Assembly: GCA_963726575.1 (NCBI GenBank)
Contig: CAVSCR010000003.1
Coordinates: forward strand, 226,518 to 290,517
DNA: 64,000 bases
Source: an uncultured Actinomycetota bacterium
GTDB taxonomy: Bacteria; Actinomycetota; Actinomycetes; JAHEKZ01
Direction of reading: 5' to 3'
This document shows positions 7,970 through 30,337 of this stretch, in pieces (position 1 is the first letter of the stretch; every line of letters starts with the position of its first letter). The position numbers and the translations under genes are program-made. The notes beneath the pieces were generated by a model. That model did not search any database. It was not told the DNA's origin and saw only the letters and a list, made by a program, of their open reading frames with translations.

Positions 7970-8054
7970 TCGGCAGCCGTCAGTCGTCACCCTCACACAC
8001 GCAGCGGCGGGCCGAGCCCTGGGGCCCGACCCGCCGATTGTCGGCGTGCGCGTT

Positions 8055-8561
8055 CTAGCGCTTACGCGCGGTCGCCTTCTTTGTGGTCGACTTGCGTGCG
8101 GTCGCCTTCTTGGCCGTGGCCCTCTTGGCCGTGGTCTTCTTCGCTGGCGCCTTGCGTGCTGTTGTCTTCTTGGCTGGCGCACGCTTGGCCGGAGCCTTCT
8201 TGGCGGAGGAGCGAGACGGAGCCGCCTTGGCCGCCCGAGTGGCCGCCGTACGAGCAGTTGACGCAGCCACCTTCGGAAGCTTCTTCGCGCCGCTGACCAC
8301 TGCCTTGAACTCCGCGCCGGCCTTGAACTTCGGGACGGACGTCTTCTTCACCTTCACGGTGGCACCAGTCTGCGGGTTGCGCGCCGTGCGAGCCGGACGG
8401 TCGACCTTCTCGAAGACGCCGAAGCCCGTGATGACGACGCGCTCGCCGGTCGCCACCTCACGCTTGATCACATCGATCACGGTGTCGAGAGCGTGCTGCG
8501 CCTGGCGGCGATTGCCATCGAACCGGTTCGAGAGAGTCTCGATCAACTCAGCCTTGTTCAC
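8055..8561 (-). CDS. hupB: HU/histone-like DNA-binding protein with Lys/Ala-rich C-terminal tail (mycobacterial HupB/MDP1 type)
   Basis: N-terminal HU fold (MNKAELIETL...RVVITGFGVFEKVDRPARTARNPQTGATV) followed by PAKK/TAKK/ARK repeats. GGGGAAG RBS then GTG start. Confidence 0.9.
   Translation of the reverse strand: MNKAELIETLSNRFDGNRRQAQHALDTVIDVIKREVATGERVVITGFGVFEKVDRPARTARNPQTGATVKVKKTSVPKFKAGAEFKAVVSGAKKLPKVAASTARTAATRAAKAAPSRSSAKKAPAKRAPAKKTTARKAPAKKTTAKRATAKKATARKSTTKKATARKR
8083..8290. repeat. imperfect ~30-bp tandem repeats encoding the basic PAKK/AKKA tail of HupB
   Basis: Direct repeats of gcggtcgccttcttggccgtgg-like units. A parallel + strand ORF (8083..8577) translates as low-complexity LAVAL repeats. 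Confidence 0.6.
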
Positions 8562-13287: not shown

Positions 13288-13360
13288 TAGCCCCGACCGG
13301 ATTCGAACCGGCGCTACCGCCTTGAGAGGGCGGCGTGCTAGGCCGCTACACAACGGGGCC
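13288..13360 (-). tRNA. tRNA-Glu (anticodon CTC)
   Basis: The reverse complement GGCCCCGTTGTGTAGCGGCCTAGCACGCCGCCCTCTCAAGGCGGTAGCGCCGGTTCGAATCCGGTCGGGGCTA folds as a cloverleaf. Anticodon loop CTCTCAA, T-loop TTCGAAT. Confidence 0.85.
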
Positions 13361-13402
13361 GTACACAGGTCGACCGCTCCATCTGGGGAGCGTTCGGATC
13401 CG

Positions 13403-13474
13403 CTGGGGTACCAGGACTCGAACCTAGACTAACGGAGCCAGAATCCGTCGGGCTGCCAATTACCCCATACCCCA
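13403..13474 (-). tRNA. tRNA-Gln (anticodon CTG)
   Basis: The reverse complement TGGGGTATGGGGTAATTGGCAGCCCGACGGATTCTGGCTCCGTTAGTCTAGGTTCGAGTCCTGGTACCCCAG has a 7-bp acceptor stem, anticodon loop TTCTGGC and T-loop TTCGAGT. Confidence 0.85.
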
Positions 13475-16605: not shown

Positions 16606-18213
16606 TCAGACCTGGTCGCGCCCGGCGCGCAACAGGCCATAGGTGATGGCGTCTTCGAGCGCGTTCCACGAGGCGGCGATGACGTTCTCGTGGACGCCCA
16701 CGGTGTCCCACTCACCCTGCCCGTCGCTGGTCTCGATCAGCACCCTGGTCACGGCGGCGGTCCCCTCACGTCCCTCCAGGATCCGCACCTTGTAGTCGGT
16801 GAGCTCCAGCTGCGCCAGCTCGGGAAAGGCCTGGGCAAGCGCAGAGCGCAATGCGTTGTCCAACGCGTTGACGGGACCGTTGCCCTCACCGGTGGCGATG
16901 ATCCGCTGGTCGAGGGCGTGAACCTTCACCGTCGCCTCGCTCATCACCTCGCCATCAGCTCGCTGCTCGACGATCGCGCGCCACGACTCCACCCGGAAGT
17001 GGCGCCGCCGCTCGCCCGCCACCGTGTCGCGCAGTAGCAGCTCGAACGATGCGTCGGCAGCCTCGAACGTGTAGCCGCGGGACTCGAGGTCCTTGACCCG
17101 CTCGACCAGCCGGCCCAGGGCAGCGCGGTCGTCGGACAGGTCGTAACCGAGCTCCTTTCCCTTCAGCTCGATCGACGCCCGACCCGCCATCTCGGTGACC
17201 AGCACGCGCATGTCGTTGCCGACGACCTCGGGGTCGAGATGGTTGTACAGGTCAGGCGACACCTTGATCGCACTGGCGTGCAGGCCAGCCTTGTGAGCGA
17301 ACGCCGAGACCCCGACGAAGGGCTGATGGGTGTCGGGCGCGATGTTGGCGATCTCGGCGAGCGCGTGACTCACTCGCACCATCTCGCGCAGCCGACCGGC
17401 TGGCAGAACCCTCAGATCGAGCTTGGTCTCCAGGTCACCGATGACTGCGAAGAGGTCTGCGTTGCCCGTCCGCTCGCCATACCCGTTGGCGGTGCACTGG
17501 ACGTGCGTAGCCCCAGCTTCCACAGCCGTGACGGTGTTCGCTACGGCACAGCCGGTGTCGTCCTGGCAGTGGATCCCCAACCGACCTTGCCCCTTGCGCT
17601 CGGCCACCTCCGACACGACTTCGTGGACGCGCATGGGAAGCATTCCGCCGTTGGTGTCGCAGAGCACGCAGACGTCGGCGCCGGCCTCCATCGCAACCGC
17701 GATCACCTGGAGCGCGTAGCTGCTGTCGTGGTGGTACCCGTCGAAGAAGTGCTCGAGGTCGAGGAATACCCGACGACCCTCGGTCACGAGGAGCGAGACG
17801 GTGTCCGCCACCATCGCGAGGTTCTCCTCCAACGTCGTGCGCAACGCCTGCGTCACGTGGCGCACGTCGGACTTTGCCACGAGGGTCACGACCGGTGTCT
17901 GCGCGTCGAGCAGGGCCCGCACCTGCGGATCCTGATCGACCTTCGTCCCCGGCTTGCGGGTGGCCCCGAAGGCCACGAGCTGCGCATGAGTCAGGGAGAG
18001 CTCCGCTCGGGCCCGCTCGAAGAACTCAGTGTCCTTGGGTAGTGCACCGGGCCACCCGCCCTCGATGAAGCCCACGCCCAGCTCGTCGAGGAGGCGCGCC
18101 ACCGCCAGCTTGTCGGGAACCGAGTACGTGATGCCCTCCCGTTGTGCCCCGTCGCGCAGCGTCGTGTCATAGACGTGGAACACGTCGTCGGGTGGGGCGA
18201 CAGGGGCGGTCAC
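16606..18213 (-). CDS. cimA: (R)-citramalate synthase (LeuA-related, CimA type)
   Basis: HVYDTTLRDGAQ, the GGWPGALPKD signature of the CimA/LeuA_rel clade, and a C-terminal regulatory domain. GGAGG RBS with GTG start at 18213. Confidence 0.8.
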   Translation of the reverse strand: MTAPVAPPDDVFHVYDTTLRDGAQREGITYSVPDKLAVARLLDELGVGFIEGGWPGALPKDTEFFERARAELSLTHAQLVAFGATRKPGTKVDQDPQVRALLDAQTPVVTLVAKSDVRHVTQALRTTLEENLAMVADTVSLLVTEGRRVFLDLEHFFDGYHHDSSYALQVIAVAMEAGADVCVLCDTNGGMLPMRVHEVVSEVAERKGQGRLGIHCQDDTGCAVANTVTAVEAGATHVQCTANGYGERTGNADLFAVIGDLETKLDLRVLPAGRLREMVRVSHALAEIANIAPDTHQPFVGVSAFAHKAGLHASAIKVSPDLYNHLDPEVVGNDMRVLVTEMAGRASIELKGKELGYDLSDDRAALGRLVERVKDLESRGYTFEAADASFELLLRDTVAGERRRHFRVESWRAIVEQRADGEVMSEATVKVHALDQRIIATGEGNGPVNALDNALRSALAQAFPELAQLELTDYKVRILEGREGTAAVTRVLIETSDGQGEWDTVGVHENVIAASWNALEDAITYGLLRAGRDQV

Positions 18214-18227
18214 GACTGCCTCCAGGA

Positions 18228-18312
18228 ATGAAAAGACCCCCCGCAGGAGCGAGAGGTCGGCGCGCCAGGCGAACTGCCTGACGCGCTATCCGATGATGAT
18301 CAGTGGGCGCAT
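18228..18312 (-). promoter_or_regulatory. putative Ile-responsive attenuator upstream of cimA: 8-codon leader ORF MRPLIIIG (about 18286..18312), an 11-bp GC hairpin, then a short stem plus U-run directly before the cimA RBS
   Basis: Minus-sense reads atg cgc cca ctg atc atc atc gga tag, then GCGCGTCAGGCagttcGCCTGGCGCGC, then gacctctcgctcctgcggggggtcttttc, then cattcctggaggcagtc GTG. Confidence 0.5.
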
Positions 18313-18353
18313 CACCGGCAGTCTGACACACCCCGGGCCGAGGGGGACACCGT

Positions 18354-19511
18354 CTACGGCGCTTCGATCACGTGCATCCACCCGTGCACGTCCGGCACAG
18401 TGCCGTGCTGCAACCCGAGCAAGTGCGCTCGCAGTCGGGTCGTCACCGGTCCTGGTGCGCCGTCACCGACGCGCCAGCCGCCGTGGCTGGCCTTGACTTC
18501 GCCCACCGGCGTGATGACTGCCGCCGTCCCGCACGCGAAGACCTCAGAGATCGAGCCGTCCTCGTTCCCGGCCCGCCAGTCGCTGACGTTGATCCGGCCC
18601 TCCTCCGCCGACATGCCGAGGTCCCGCGCCACGGTGAGGAGCGAGTCCCGCGTCACGCCGGGGAGAAGGGCGCCGGTCAGCGACGGAGTCACGAGGCGGG
18701 CGGCGTCGCCGGTGCCGTACACGAAGTACAGGTTCATGCCCCCCATCTCCTCGACCCATCGACGTTCCACGGCGTCCAACCACACCACCTGGTCGCAGCC
18801 CTGCTCGGCCGCCTGCGCCTGCGCGATGAGCGACGCGGCATAGTTCCCGGCACACTTCGCCTCGCCGGTGCCACCGGGAGCCGCCCGCACGTACTCCTCC
18901 GACAGCCAGACCGACACCGGCTTGACGCCGCCGCGGAAGTACGCGCCCGCCGGCGAGGCGATGAGCAGGAACAGGTAGGACGAAGCGGGTTTCACGCCGA
19001 GTCCCACCTCGGTCGAGATCATGAACGGTCGCAGGTAGAGGCTGTGCTCCTGGTCGGCCGGCACCCACGCCCGGTCCGCCCGCACCAGAGCCTCGATGGC
19101 GGCCACGAACAGACCTTCGGGTAGCTCCGGCATCGCAAGTCGCCTGGCTGATCGCTGGAAGCGCAGGGCGTTCATGTGCGGTCGGAACGTCGCGATGGAA
19201 CCGTCAGAGCGCCGGTAGGCCTTCAGCCCCTCGAAGATCTCCTGGCCGTAGTGCAGGGCCATCGTCGCCGGATCGAGCTCCAAGGGGCCGTAGGGGACGA
19301 GTTGGGCGTCGTGCCAACCGCGACCCTCCGTCCAGCCGATGGTCACCATGTGGTCGGTGAAGTACCTCCCGAAGCCTGGATCGGCCAGGATGGCCGCCCG
19401 CTCCGCATTCGACAGCGGCGACGAGGTCGGCTTCAGCGCGATCGTCTTGGCGGCTTCGGCCGGCGCCATGGACTGCTCTCCCATGGACGGACGGTACCCC
19501 GTGCCGCCCAC
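18354..19511 (-). CDS. ilvE: branched-chain-amino-acid aminotransferase
   Basis: Class IV aminotransferase fold ([30 protein letters not shown]...). Directly follows leuB. Confidence 0.92.
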
Positions 19512-20567
19512 TCAGCGCGGCCCGTCGACGACGCGCGCGGCCAGGGCGTCACCGATCTGTGTCGTGGAGCGTTGGACCGATCCGCGCGCCGCCAGGTCGG
19601 CCGAGACCGCCGCTTCGACGGCAGCCGCTGCCTCGGCGTGGCCGAGGTGGTCCAACAGCAACGCCACCGACAAGACGGTGGCGGTCGGGTCAGCGACCCC
19701 CTGTCCCGCGATGTCAGGTGCCGACCCATGCACCGGCTCGAACATGCTGGGATTGGTGCGGGTCATGTCCAGGTTGCCGCTTGCCGCACGTCCGATGCCG
19801 CCAGCGATGGCAGCGCCGATGTCAGTGATGACGTCGCCGAACAAGTTGTCGGTGACAACGACGTCGAACCGCTCCGGAGCAGTCACGAAGAACATGCTCG
19901 CCGCATCCACATGCTGATACTCGGTCTCGACCTCGGGGTACTCAGCGGACACCCGGACAAAGGTTCGCGTCCACAAACCGCCGGCGTGCGTCATCACGTT
20001 GTTCTTGTGCACCAGTGTCAGTTTGCGTCGTGGCCGATTGCTCGCACGGCGGAACGCATCACGAATCACCCGCTCACAGCCGAACGCCGTGTTCAGGCTC
20101 TCCTCGGTCGCGACCTCCTCGGGCGTGTCCCGACGCAGCACGCCGCCCGCGCCCGCGTAGGGACCTTCGGTTCCTTCGCGAACCACGACCATGTCGATGT
20201 CGGCCGGTCCCTTGCCGGCCAGCGGCGTCGACACGCCTGGGTAGAGCCGCACCGGACGCAGGTTCACGAAGTGGTCCAGTGCGAAGCGCAGCTTGAGCAG
20301 CAAACCTCGCTCGAGCACCCCGCTGGGCACGCTCGGATCGCCCACCGCACCCAGGAGGATCGCGTCGTGTTCGCGGATCTCCGACAGCACGGAGTCGGGC
20401 AGCGTCTCGCCGCTGGCGTGCCACCGTCGAGCTCCCAGGTCGTACTCGGTCGGCTCGAACGCCAGCCCGTAACGGTCGGCTACGGCGTCCAGGACCTTGC
20501 GGCCCTCGGCCACCACCTCAGGCCCGATGCCGTCGCCGCCGATCACGGCCAGCCGGTAGTCCGTCAT
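19512..20567 (-). CDS. leuB: 3-isopropylmalate dehydrogenase
   Basis: [19 protein letters not shown]...; isocitrate/isopropylmalate dehydrogenase family. Confidence 0.92.
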
Positions 20568-26748: not shown

Positions 26749-30127
<3,379 letters not shown>

Positions 30128-30151
30128 CGGGTTCCTTCTGTCGTCGGGCAC

Positions 30152-30189
30152 GAAAAAACCCCTCCGACCCGTTGGGTCCGTCGAGGGGC
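30152..30189 (-). terminator. GC-rich hairpin plus U6 (intrinsic terminator/attenuator) about 14 nt upstream of the ilvB RBS
   Basis: Minus-sense reads CCCCTCGACGGACCCaacGGGTCGGAGGGG TTTTTT cgtgcc; an inner perfect stem GACCC/GGGTC and an outer stem CCCCTC/GAGGGG. Confidence 0.55.
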
Positions 30190-30212
30190 AGCGCGCGGAT
30201 GGACGAATCGGC

Positions 30213-30254
30213 TCAGGCCGCGCGCCGTCCGATTACGAGGAGAAGCTTCCGCAC
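30213..30254 (-). promoter_or_regulatory. putative ilvBNC leader peptide [16 protein letters not shown] (GTG start), carrying a Leu-Leu-Leu-Val-Ile regulatory codon run
   Basis: Minus-sense reads gtg cgg aag ctt ctc ctc gta atc gga cgg cgc gcg gcc tga. It ends about 24 nt before the terminator hairpin. Style resembles the Streptomyces ilvB leader (MRTRILVLGKRVG). A perfect 16-bp palindrome GCCCGCTGCAGCGGGC lies just upstream. Confidence 0.5.
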
Positions 30255-30337
30255 CTCGCCAGGGTCCGCCCGCTGCAGCGGGCGCGTCAAGTTTGCGAGA
30301 CAGCCATCTCATGATGCGAGACCCACGGACGAACCGC

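What the first reader, a model, noticed from the sequence alone, without database searches (positions are those of the whole stretch)
18228..18312. Isoleucine-codon leader peptide and hairpins upstream of citramalate synthase: candidate Ile attenuator
In the 140-bp gap between ilvE and cimA, the coding strand carries an 8-codon ORF atg cgc cca ctg atc atc atc gga tag (MRPLIIIG). A perfect 11-bp GC hairpin follows immediately (GCGCGTCAGGC-agttc-GCCTGGCGCGC, one G-U pair). Next comes a shorter stem plus U-run (gacctc...ggggtc tttt) ending 6 nt before the cimA GGAGG RBS. CimA commits pyruvate plus acetyl-CoA to the threonine-independent route to 2-ketobutyrate and isoleucine. Three consecutive Ile codons in a leader are exactly what ribosome-mediated attenuation by Ile-tRNA charging would use. 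I am not aware that this has been described for cimA in actinobacteria.
Basis: seen in the sequence. Interest (0 to 1): 0.6.

Follow-up and report, generated by a model that had tools for sequence, protein, structure and literature searches.

The report
Isoleucine-sensing leader upstream of citramalate synthase
A tiny upstream reading frame with three isoleucine codons, followed by two hairpins and a terminator, sits before the citramalate synthase gene here and in most actinomycetes sampled; it most likely switches the isoleucine-specific pathway on when charged isoleucine tRNA runs short.

Summary

- **What is there:** an 8-codon ORF (MRPLIIIG), an 11-bp GC hairpin (P1) and a 10-bp terminator with a U-run fill the ilvE–cimA gap.
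- **Conservation:** a covariance model built from this architecture finds one full-length copy just upstream of cimA in 75 of 80 species (Streptomyces, Kitasatospora, Nonomuraea, Micromonospora, Geodermatophilaceae, uncultured lineages). It is there whether or not ilvE is the upstream neighbour.
- **Structure:** both helices show compensatory changes.
- **Peptide:** only the Ile run is conserved. 49 of 55 distinct leaders have at least two consecutive Ile. The Ile codons are mostly ATT, which is rare in the adjacent cimA genes.
- **Paralogue:** the same model hits the ilvB leader in this window ([13 protein letters not shown]) and ilvB leaders elsewhere. Those carry Leu/Val/Ile runs and never Ile-Ile. 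ilvB leaders with this layout (leaderless uORF, BCAA codon run, terminator) have been shown to attenuate in Mycobacterium tuberculosis and Corynebacterium glutamicum.
- **Unresolved:** I found no conserved antiterminator pairing. P1 abuts the terminator with no gap, so how stalling prevents termination is inferred.
- **Prior description:** none found in Rfam 15 or in the searchable literature.

Verdict: a new member of a known kind.

The parts
18320..18328 (-). Extended -10-like box TG-T-CAGACT of the leader promoter. It lies 7 nt before the ATG, which implies a leaderless or 1-nt-leader transcript.
   Evidence: One search gives the sequence. One search shows TGTGnCAGACT conserved about 6 nt before the leader start codon in most loci. 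The consensus promoter scan found nothing here, so this rests on conservation only.
18286..18312 (-). Leader ORF ATG CGC CCA CTG ATC ATC ATC GGA TAG (MRPLIIIG*). An alternative in-frame GTG start lies at 18315.
   Evidence: The closest relative L081 has MRALIIIG*.
18292..18300 (-). Three consecutive Ile codons (ATC x3), the proposed sensor.
   Evidence: the only ATHATHATH in the window; an Ile run is present in 49 of 55 distinct cimA leaders.
18260..18286 (-). Hairpin P1 (11 bp, loop AGTTC). Its base GCGCG/CGCGC is invariant in the family. Its 5' base is the G of the leader stop codon.
   Evidence: 94.5% of cells paired, 5 invariant pairs and 5 pairs with compensatory changes.
18231..18258 (-). 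Intrinsic terminator T: a 10-bp stem with a pyrimidine-only 5' arm and a purine-only 3' arm, loop TCCT, then TTTT. It is 1 nt from P1.
   Evidence: terminator scan; 95.4% of cells paired, 5 pairs with compensatory changes.
18219..18223 (-). GGAGG ribosome-binding site of cimA.
16606..18213 (-). cimA, citramalate synthase, the regulated gene.
   Evidence: TIGR00977 equivalog, 635 bits against a cut-off of 450..
18354..19511 (-). ilvE, the upstream neighbour. Its transcripts also run into T.
   Evidence: One search shows the element follows cimA, not ilvE, in other genomes.
30153..30254 (-). Paralogous ilvB leader: GTG..TGA ([13 protein letters not shown], 30254..30213), a GGCGCGCGG/CCGCGCGCT hairpin, then a terminator and T6, upstream of ilvB (30151..28382).
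   Evidence: One search gives the sequence; the cimA-leader model hits it full length, 28.1 bits, E = 5e-6. One search gives the fold.

Best explanation
This is a ribosome-mediated transcription attenuator that makes cimA expression respond to the supply of charged tRNA-Ile. It is a paralogue of the actinobacterial ilvBNC leader whose regulatory codons have been narrowed to isoleucine.

**Proposed sequence of events**
1. Transcription starts at, or one base before, the ATG (inferred from the conserved TGnCAGACT box).
2. A 70S ribosome translates MRPLIIIG.
3. The first Ile codon lies 11-15 nt before the base of hairpin P1. A ribosome waiting for Ile-tRNA therefore parks flush against an intact P1.
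4. If Ile-tRNA is plentiful, the ribosome runs on to the stop codon. The stop always lies at or inside the 5' arm of P1, so the ribosome unzips the invariant GCGCG base. The terminator next door then forms and transcription stops 21 nt before cimA.
5. If the ribosome is held at the Ile codons, P1 stays closed and termination is reduced, so cimA is transcribed.

**Shown:** the anatomy, its conservation, covariation in both helices, the geometry, the codon specificity and the homology to ilvB leaders.

**Inferred:** that translation occurs, that Ile starvation raises read-through, and above all how a closed P1 opposes the terminator. The two helices share no bases. They abut with no gap. My working idea is that a closed P1 acts as the antiterminator equivalent by steric or stacking competition at that junction. 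A parked ribosome, P1 and the terminator base inside RNA polymerase cannot all be accommodated. This corresponds to the adjacent antiterminator and terminator hairpins proposed for C. glutamicum ilvBNC.
For: 1. **Conservation with cimA.** Model R1 gives one full-length hit on the cimA strand, ending at most about 260 nt before cimA, in 75 of 80 species. There is no other hit in 514 kb at E < 0.01. ilvE is adjacent in some loci, distant or absent in others.
2. **Covariation.** P1 is 94.5% paired and T 95.4% paired. Each has 5 pairs with compensatory changes. No shuffle reaches the observed score, and slid controls give 34-54% paired.
3. **The peptide is conserved only at the Ile run.** N-termini vary. 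Some Streptomyces have a 1-nt frameshift that gives IIGSSAPVRSDR* instead of IIGSRRAGPQ* on the same RNA sequence.
4. **Codon specificity.** The hydrophobic run in cimA leaders holds I 112, L 25, V 9, and 49 of 55 distinct peptides have II. In ilvB leaders it holds V 50, L 44, I 19, and 0 of 29 have II. Fisher p is about 1e-22, though the sequences are not phylogenetically independent. Both types occur in this window.
5. **Rare codons.** ATT accounts for 112 of 152 leader Ile codons, against 37 of 1314 in the adjacent cimA genes.
6. **Geometry.** The first Ile nucleotide to the P1 base is 11-15 nt in 73 of 74 elements. The P1-T gap is 0 nt in 71 of 74. The stop codon lies -2 to +44 nt from the P1 base in all.
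7. **Homology to ilvB leaders.** The model hits the window's ilvB leader at 28.1 bits. It also hits upstream of ilvB in most of the closer metagenomic ilvB loci searched.
8. **Experiments on ilvB leaders with this layout.**
   - M. tuberculosis ilvB1: the uORF is translated, a terminated transcript of about 120 nt is seen, and changing LVVI to AAAA abolishes induction (PMC13236596).
   - C. glutamicum: terminator mutations raise expression 7-8-fold, and the model has adjacent antiterminator and terminator hairpins (PMC11857589).
   - Corynebacterium: the ilvB-II motif (PMC10272879).
9. **No room for a second promoter.** Only 21 nt lie between the U-run and the cimA start, so cimA here must be transcribed through T.
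Against: - **No antiterminator pairing.** None that excludes the terminator exists. With the ribosome masked at the first Ile, at the last Ile or at the stop, the minimum-energy fold keeps T in all 12 representatives. The same holds in 9 ilvB leaders. Before the 3' arm is made, the 5' arm of T stays largely unpaired. The commonest alternative helix is a 4-bp CGCG:CGCG.
- **Thermodynamics predicts a constitutive terminator**, so regulated read-through needs a steric or kinetic effect that I cannot test.
- **A negative result in the family.** Mutating the putative regulatory codons of the S. coelicolor ilvB leader was reported to have no effect (Craster 1999, as cited in PMC1262725).
- **Some leaders are weak sensors.** Several Streptomyces cimA leaders have a single Ile (MIMG, MITG).
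- **The element is dispensable.** It is absent from 5 of 80 loci and from a relative with 90% identical CimA, where ilvE and cimA are 1 nt apart.
- **No data on this locus.** There is no transcript, ribosome-profiling or reporter data for any cimA leader.
Confidence: 0.72

Rival explanations
1. The RNA element is a real cis-regulator of cimA, but translation of the Ile codons is not the sensor. A protein, a small molecule or general RNA polymerase kinetics sets read-through of the terminator. The small ORF is an inherited relic of the ilvB-type leader.
For: - No antiterminator pairing was found.
- Codon mutations in the S. coelicolor ilvB leader reportedly had no effect (PMC1262725).
- Some leaders have only one Ile.
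- A conserved palindrome TCTCG-N5-TGAGA upstream of many cimA and ilvB leaders points to an additional, protein-based control.
Against: - A relic would not keep an Ile-only run across orders while its ilvB paralogue keeps Leu/Val/Ile.
- A relic would not keep rare ATT codons at 74% against 3% in the cimA genes.
- A relic would not hold the Ile codons 11-15 nt from P1.
- The P1 loop varies greatly in length and sequence, since P1 spans 25-95 nt. That is unlike a ligand pocket.
- There is no Rfam match.
- Changing LVVI to AAAA abolishes regulation of the M. tuberculosis ilvB1 leader.
Confidence: 0.14
2. The control acts on translation of cimA rather than on transcription. The hairpins mask or unmask the GGAGG site depending on leader translation.
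For: - In this window the U-run ends only 7 nt before GGAGG.
- The pyrimidine-rich 5' arm of T (CCTCTC) could pair with a Shine-Dalgarno sequence.
- Translation-level control by leader ORFs is known in actinobacteria: the LEU element (PMC1262725) and the cysteine leaders mentioned in PMC13236596.
Against: - The distance from the U-run to cimA varies from about 10 to 263 nt among loci, and the intervening sequence is not conserved outside Streptomyces.
- The conserved unit ends with a canonical stem plus U-run in every lineage.
- In the predicted fold of the window the SD is not paired with the element's arms.
Confidence: 0.05
3. The hairpin plus U-run is simply the terminator of the leuB-ilvE transcript, and the 8-codon ORF is a chance ORF.
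For: - The element begins 41 nt after the ilvE stop.
- ATHATHATH alone is not statistically significant in 64 kb.
- On a read-through transcript from ilvE the predicted fold pairs CCGGUGAUG with CAUCAUCGG and hides the leader start. T probably does also end ilvE transcripts.
Against: - The whole unit, with its own -10 box, is kept upstream of cimA where the upstream gene is leuB (L025, L078), where it is a divergent lipase-like gene (L084), and where ilvE is far away or absent within 2.5 kb.
- 75 of 80 loci have the element.
- The ORF frame and the Ile run are conserved.
Confidence: 0.03
4. The small ORF encodes a functional micropeptide, or the terminated transcript is a small RNA with its own trans-acting role.
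For: - It is a short stable transcript with its own promoter and terminator.
- Both leaders give weak sub-threshold matches to a family filed in Rfam as an sRNA, Atu_C8.
Against: - Peptide length runs from 8 to 18 residues, and only Ile-Ile is shared.
- Frameshifted C-termini occur on an unchanged RNA sequence.
- The element is always in cis, in the same orientation, directly before cimA.
Confidence: 0.03

Closest known systems
Actinobacterial ilvBNC leader (ilvL): Streptomyces ilvL (MRTRILVLGKRVG*, PMC8079986; Seliverstov 2005, PMC1262725), M. tuberculosis ilvB1 uORF 'LVVI' (PMC13236596), and the copy in this window ([13 protein letters not shown])
   Same: - Start codon about 6 nt after the -10 box, so probably leaderless.
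- A short ORF in which a run of regulatory codons is followed by Gly and Arg-Arg-Ala, encoded by GCGCGC.
- A GC hairpin whose 5' arm holds or directly follows the stop codon.
- A terminator with a CCUC-type 5' arm and a GAGG-type 3' arm set flush against that hairpin, then a U-run.
- The cimA-leader model recognises ilvB leaders full length.
- Rare codons are also used in the ilvB leaders (GUA, CUU).
   Different: - The regulatory run is Ile-Ile(-Ile) instead of Leu/Val/Ile mixtures.
- It controls cimA, the Ile-only branch, not the shared BCAA enzymes.
- The model scores separate the two groups: 39-93 bits for cimA leaders (all but L006 at or above 50) against 13-41 bits for ilvB leaders.
- The window's version is cut to 8 codons, with the stop at the P1 base.
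Corynebacterium ilvB-II motif / C. glutamicum ilvBNC three-hairpin attenuator (PMC10272879, PMC11857589)
   Same: - Leaderless uORF rich in BCAA codons.
- A hairpin next to a terminator.
- The logic that a ribosome paused at control codons lets the upstream hairpin persist, while a ribosome that runs on lets the terminator form.
- The antiterminator and terminator are neighbours rather than widely overlapping.
   Different: - In C. glutamicum the two hairpins share a GCC trinucleotide. Here they share no base (gap 0 nt).
- There the uORF spans most of the first stem.
- Sequence homology to the Corynebacterium motif was not tested here, because no Corynebacterium sequence was available.
Classical enterobacterial leader-peptide attenuators (trp, his, leu, ilvGMEDA, ilvBN)
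   Same: A short leader ORF with a run of cognate codons, often rare ones, an intrinsic terminator before the first structural gene, and coupling of transcription and translation.
   Different: - Those have an SD-led leader ORF and four segments with an explicit 2:3 antiterminator that shares bases with the 3:4 terminator.
- Here the transcript appears leaderless and no such pairing exists.
Rfam RF02502 Atu_C8 (Rhizobiales 'sRNA')
   Same: - Both the cimA and ilvB leaders give their only weak Rfam match to it (20 and 17.9 bits).
- Its consensus starts AugaUUaUucUuGUggUg, followed by a GCGC hairpin and a terminator. It looks like an Ile/Leu/Val leader of the same layout.
   Different: The scores are far below the gathering score of 50, so this is not a member. 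The reading of Atu_C8 as a BCAA leader is my own, taken from the printed consensus.

Membership tests
Ribosome-mediated leader-peptide transcription attenuator | A short ORF with start and stop just upstream of the regulated biosynthetic gene, conserved as an ORF. | tested here: met
   An in-frame start 12-21 nt (once 42 nt) before the Ile run and a stop at or inside P1 are seen in the loci with the element.
Ribosome-mediated leader-peptide transcription attenuator | A run of codons for the end-product amino acid. | tested here: met
   Three Ile codons here. 49 of 55 distinct leaders have at least two consecutive Ile. The paralogous ilvB leaders have none. Rare ATT is enriched.
Ribosome-mediated leader-peptide transcription attenuator | An intrinsic terminator between the leader ORF and the gene. 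| tested here: met
   Terminator scan. Covariation in T. A U-run is present in all elements.
Ribosome-mediated leader-peptide transcription attenuator | An antiterminator structure mutually exclusive with the terminator, favoured when the ribosome stalls. | tested here: not met
   Masked folds keep T in every state. No conserved helix involves the T arms beyond 4 bp. P1 abuts T but shares no base. This lowers the claim of a classical four-segment attenuator. It does not lower the claim that the element works like the ilvB leaders.
Ribosome-mediated leader-peptide transcription attenuator | The leader is translated, and read-through responds to charged tRNA. | not testable with these tools
   Shown only for ilvB leaders of this type in M. 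tuberculosis and Corynebacterium (PMC13236596, PMC11857589, PMC10272879).
Actinobacterial ilvB-type (ilvL) leader family | Shared sequence and structure: regulatory codons, GCGCGC-based hairpin, flush CCUC/GAGG terminator. | tested here: met
   The model built from cimA leaders only hits the window's ilvB leader full length (28.1 bits, E = 5e-6). It also hits upstream of ilvB in about 30 of 51 metagenomic loci.
Actinobacterial ilvB-type (ilvL) leader family | Leaderless transcript, with the transcription start at the start codon. | tested here: inconclusive
   TGTGnCAGACT lies about 6 nt before the start codon in most loci; in the window it lies 7 nt before the ATG. There is no transcript data, and the sigma-70 consensus scan found no promoter.
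Any Rfam 15 family | A score at or above the family's gathering threshold. | tested here: not met
   only tRNAs pass in the window. The best match at the element is Atu_C8 at 20 bits, against a threshold of 50.

The most novel reading that the evidence does not exclude
The cimA and ilvB leaders of these actinomycetes form a class of attenuator that needs no antiterminator pairing. Hairpin P1 would act as a clamp. Its 5' base sits at the entrance of a ribosome parked on the regulatory codons, and its 3' base sits flush against the terminator. The terminator stem then cannot close down to its base without forcing the ribosome and RNA polymerase into the same space. Termination would be relieved sterically, and only when a ribosome is parked. 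A ribosome that runs on unzips P1 and restores termination.

This would explain several conserved features: the invariant GCGCG base, the 0-nt P1-T junction, the 11-15-nt spacing from the first Ile codon to P1, and the freely variable P1 loop.
Probability: 0.15. Interest if true: 0.8.

Novelty: new member of a known kind. Interest (0 to 1): 0.5.

Why it matters
- **Pathway logic.** Citramalate synthase is the committed step of the threonine-independent route to isoleucine. The known control I am aware of is feedback inhibition of the enzyme. A conserved Ile-only leader would give the pathway its own gene-level control, separate from the Leu/Val/Ile control of ilvBNC in the same genomes.
- **Breadth.** The element is present in Streptomyces and many other antibiotic producers. 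Yet it is missing from Rfam and from published lists of actinobacterial attenuators: the 2005 comparative survey and the 2021 S. lividans reannotation, which lists 8 leaders.
- **A natural experiment.** The ilvB and cimA pair have the same scaffold but different codons. That is useful for dissecting how these antiterminator-poor actinobacterial attenuators work, a point the literature still calls unclear.
- **Application.** It offers a compact Ile-responsive part for engineering.

Tried and rejected
1. **Classical 2:3 antiterminator.** I folded 12 cimA and 9 ilvB leaders with the ribosome masked at the first regulatory codon, the last regulatory codon and the stop. T persisted every time. Folding transcripts cut before the 3' arm of T leaves the 5' arm largely unpaired. 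An unbiased count of helices of at least 4 bp between any upstream segment and the T arms over 41 non-redundant elements gave nothing better than CGCG:CGCG, in 28 of 41. Rejected.
2. **Extending P1 into the base of T, as in C. glutamicum.** Inspection of the flanks shows only a possible GG:CC across a 3x3 or 6x3 internal loop, with no covariation. Not supported.
3. **A hairpin P0 with the Ile codons in its loop.** It appears in single-sequence folds but is only 57% paired on the alignment. Not supported as conserved.
4. **Pairing of the leader 5' end with the T loop (GUGC:GCAC, AUGC:GCAU).** This does not covary with the start codon across Streptomyces. Rejected by inspection.
5. **Rfam.** No family matches.
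6. **A third model hit at window 8016..8080 (+), 16 bits.** It lies between convergent genes and looks like an ordinary terminator hairpin. Chance.
7. **Looking up the contig of the window's own CimA (P0001).** Not on record.
8. **Literature searches linking citramalate synthase, cimA or SCO5529 to a leader peptide or attenuation.** Nothing relevant.

Full report
**Observation.** On the minus strand the window carries leuB (20567..19512), ilvE (19511..18354), a 140-nt gap, and cimA (18213..16606). A fumarylacetoacetate-hydrolase-family gene and gltX follow. The cimA product matches the citramalate synthase equivalog TIGR00977 at 635 bits, against a cut-off of 450.

- ATG(18312) CGC CCA CTG ATC ATC ATC GGA TAG.
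- An 11-bp hairpin P1 (18286..18260) with one G-U pair.
- One C, then a 10-bp stem (18258..18235), TTTT (18234..18231), GGAGG (18223..18219) and the cimA GTG (18213).

Minor corrections are these. The terminator stem is 10 bp, not 6. The U-run ends 7 nt before GGAGG. An in-frame GTG lies just before the ATG.

By itself the Ile triplet is not significant. It is the only ATHATHATH in 64 kb, but 26 of 100 shuffles have one. The region does fold better than all 200 shuffles, z = -3.96, and the stem plus U-run is picked up by the terminator scan.

**Conservation.** I fetched 80 cimA loci, each from a different species. Reading the upstream regions showed the same unit almost everywhere. The unit has four parts:
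- a TGTGnCAGACT box;
- about 6 nt later, an ATG or GTG that opens a mini-ORF with two to four Ile codons;
- a hairpin with a GCGCG/CGCGC base and a loop of any length;
- directly after it, a stem with a pyrimidine-only 5' arm and a purine-only 3' arm, followed by a U-run.

A covariance model (R1) built from 22 short-loop examples finds the following:
- The window element, at 74.8 bits.
- One full-length hit on the cimA strand just upstream of cimA in 75 of 80 loci, at 39-93 bits.
- No other hit in 514 kb at E < 0.01.

The carriers include Streptomyces, Kitasatospora, Nonomuraea, Planotetraspora, Acrocarpospora, Spirillospora, Micromonospora, Asanoa, Symbioplanes, Geodermatophilaceae, Sporichthyaceae, Jatrophihabitans and uncultured freshwater and soil actinomycetes.

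The element follows cimA, not ilvE. ilvE is adjacent in some loci, far upstream or absent in many, and replaced by leuB or a divergent gene in others.

Close relatives of the window organism show both retention and loss. Retained leaders are MRALIIIG* (95% CimA identity), MSVPLIIA* and MSSFLIIR*. One relative with 90% CimA identity has lost the element and has ilvE and cimA 1 nt apart.

**Structure.** On the alignment, P1 is paired in 94.5% of cells. It has five invariant G-C pairs at the base and five pairs with compensatory changes. The terminator T is paired in 95.4% of cells, also with five compensatory pairs. No shuffle reaches the observed covariation score, and sliding the partners drops pairing to 34-54%. 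A small hairpin around the Ile codons that appears in single folds is not conserved (57% paired).

**What is conserved in the ORF.** Only the Ile run is conserved.
- N-termini differ between lineages.
- Peptide length ranges from 8 to 18 residues.
- The stop codon can sit just before P1 or up to 44 nt inside it.
- A group of Streptomyces has a one-base frameshift that changes the C-terminus (IIGSSAPVRSDR* instead of IIGSRRAGPQ*) while the RNA sequence stays the same. Downstream of the Ile codons, then, selection acts on the RNA and not on the peptide.
- The Ile codons are ATT in 112 of 152 cases, whereas the adjacent cimA genes use ATT in 37 of 1314 Ile codons. Use of a rare codon is what a stalling sensor would favour.

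**A paralogue with different codons.** The window also has a leader upstream of ilvB. It encodes [13 protein letters not shown], followed by a GGCGCGCGG/CCGCGCGCT hairpin and a CCCCUC/GAGGGG terminator with T6.
- R1 was built from cimA leaders only, yet it hits this ilvB leader full length at 28.1 bits, E = 5e-6.
- It also hits upstream of ilvB in about 30 of 51 metagenomic ilvB loci, at 13-41 bits.
- Those ilvB leaders carry LVVI, ILVL or LVVV runs. The counts are V 50, L 44, I 19, and none of 29 has Ile-Ile.
- The cimA leaders have I 112, L 25, V 9, and 49 of 55 distinct peptides have Ile-Ile.

The same scaffold therefore carries the codons of all three branched-chain amino acids before the shared enzymes, and isoleucine codons before the isoleucine-only enzyme. 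This is the strongest argument that the codons are read as a signal.

**What is known about the family.**
- Candidate ilvB leaders with terminators were noted in Corynebacterium, Mycobacterium and Streptomyces in 2005. The authors remarked that parts of a classical attenuator are missing, and that codon mutations in S. coelicolor had no effect (PMC1262725).
- The S. lividans reannotation lists eight leaderless leader peptides, including ilvL (MRTRILVLGKRVG*), but none for cimA (PMC8079986).
- In M. tuberculosis the ilvB1 uORF with LVVI is translated, and a terminated transcript of about 120 nt is seen. Changing LVVI to AAAA abolishes induction. The proposed logic is that a stalled ribosome allows the antiterminator, while a ribosome at the stop codon masks it (PMC13236596).
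- In C. glutamicum, mutations in the terminator raise expression 7-8-fold. The model has an antiterminator hairpin directly next to the terminator, sharing three bases (PMC11857589). See also the ilvB-II motif (PMC10272879).
- Searches for citramalate synthase, cimA or SCO5529 together with leader peptide or attenuation found nothing relevant. Rfam 15 has no matching family.

**Mechanism.** The geometry is tightly kept.
- The first nucleotide of the first Ile codon lies 11-15 nt before the 5' base of P1 in 73 of 74 elements.
- P1 and T are separated by 0 nt in 71 of 74.
- The stop codon lies between -2 and +44 nt from the P1 base in all.

From established knowledge, not tested here, a ribosome covers about 12-13 nt beyond the first base of the A-site codon. 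A ribosome waiting at the Ile codons would then sit flush against a closed P1. One or two codons further on, it must begin to unzip the invariant GCGCG base. At the stop codon it has opened the 5' arm.

So a closed P1 marks starvation and an open P1 marks plenty. That is the logic proposed for M. tuberculosis and C. glutamicum.

What I could not find is the pairing that would make a closed P1 exclude the terminator.
- Masked folds keep T in every state.
- The 5' arm of T is largely unpaired before its partner is made.
- A systematic search for shared alternative helices gives only a 4-bp CGCG:CGCG.

The step from "P1 closed" to "less termination" is therefore inference. The flush junction suggests steric or stacking competition. 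The 5' end of P1 leads into the ribosome, the 3' end of T leads into the polymerase, and in a stacked arrangement they meet at the same point. This is stated as a hypothesis, with experiments that would separate it from the alternatives.

In this window T must be read through for cimA to be expressed, since only 21 nt separate the U-run from the start codon. T probably also ends leuB-ilvE transcripts. On such read-through RNA the leader start is predicted to be paired.

**Verdict.** The interpretation as an isoleucine attenuator of cimA is supported by conservation, covariation, codon specificity and homology to ilvB leaders with experimental support. It is not shown experimentally. It is a new member of a known kind, apparently undescribed and widespread. 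There is an open mechanistic question that it shares with the ilvB leaders.

Noticed in passing
window 30153..30254 (-): A BCAA leader upstream of ilvB: GTG CGG AAG CTT CTC CTC GTA ATC GGA CGG CGC GCG GCC TGA ([13 protein letters not shown]), then a GC hairpin and a terminator with T6. It is a paralogue of the cimA leader and is not in Rfam.
   Followed up: yes
window 30306..30322 (-); also about 54-70 nt upstream of the leader in L034, L048, L057, L023, L071, L072, L076, L092, L094, L127 and others: A palindrome GTCTCGCATCATGAGAT (TCTCG-N5-TGAGA) lies upstream of the ilvB leader promoter, with a second half-copy (CTGTCTCGCAAAC) next to it. The same motif sits at a fixed distance upstream of 11 of 75 cimA leaders and 5 of 29 ilvB leaders by a strict pattern. 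Most Streptomyces keep the right half (CGCATCCTGAGAC). It is a candidate site for a transcription factor shared by ilvB and cimA promoters. It is absent upstream of the window's cimA leader.
   Followed up: partly
L007-L064 (Streptomyces loci), between the terminator and cimA: Streptomyces have an extra 110-260 nt between the U-run and cimA. It contains a conserved block (for example GCGCGAGGGATCATTGGGGGACGGTGGAGCCGGTCATTCCGGTA, or GCGCGCGATGATGGGGGCAGTGGA). This could be a second promoter or a further RNA element.
   Followed up: no
L039, L049, L052, L062, L063, L075 (ATG ATT ATG GGC) and L037 (ATG ATT ACC): Some Streptomyces cimA leaders keep a single Ile codon (always the rare ATT) flanked by Met or Thr. 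They may be weaker sensors.
   Followed up: partly
L082, L083 (CimA 90% identical to the window's); L001, L033: The leader and terminator are absent, and ilvE and cimA are nearly fused (TAG-G-GTG in L082/L083). This looks like lineage-specific loss, with cimA joined to the ilvE transcript.
   Followed up: partly
Rfam RF02502 Atu_C8 consensus as printed: The consensus of this Rhizobiales 'sRNA' begins AugaUUaUucUuGUggUg (Met-Ile-Ile-Leu-Val-Val), followed by a GCGC hairpin and a terminator. It may itself be a BCAA leader-peptide attenuator filed as an sRNA.
   Followed up: no
window 8016..8080 (+): A GC hairpin (GCGCGTTCTAGCGCTTACGCGC) lies between convergent genes. The gene on the minus strand (8561..8055) has a repetitive alanine/lysine-rich look. 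The weak hit of the leader model here (16 bits) is probably an ordinary terminator.
   Followed up: partly
window 13288..13474 (-): Two tRNA genes lie downstream of gltX (Rfam tRNA, 59 and 57.8 bits).
   Followed up: no
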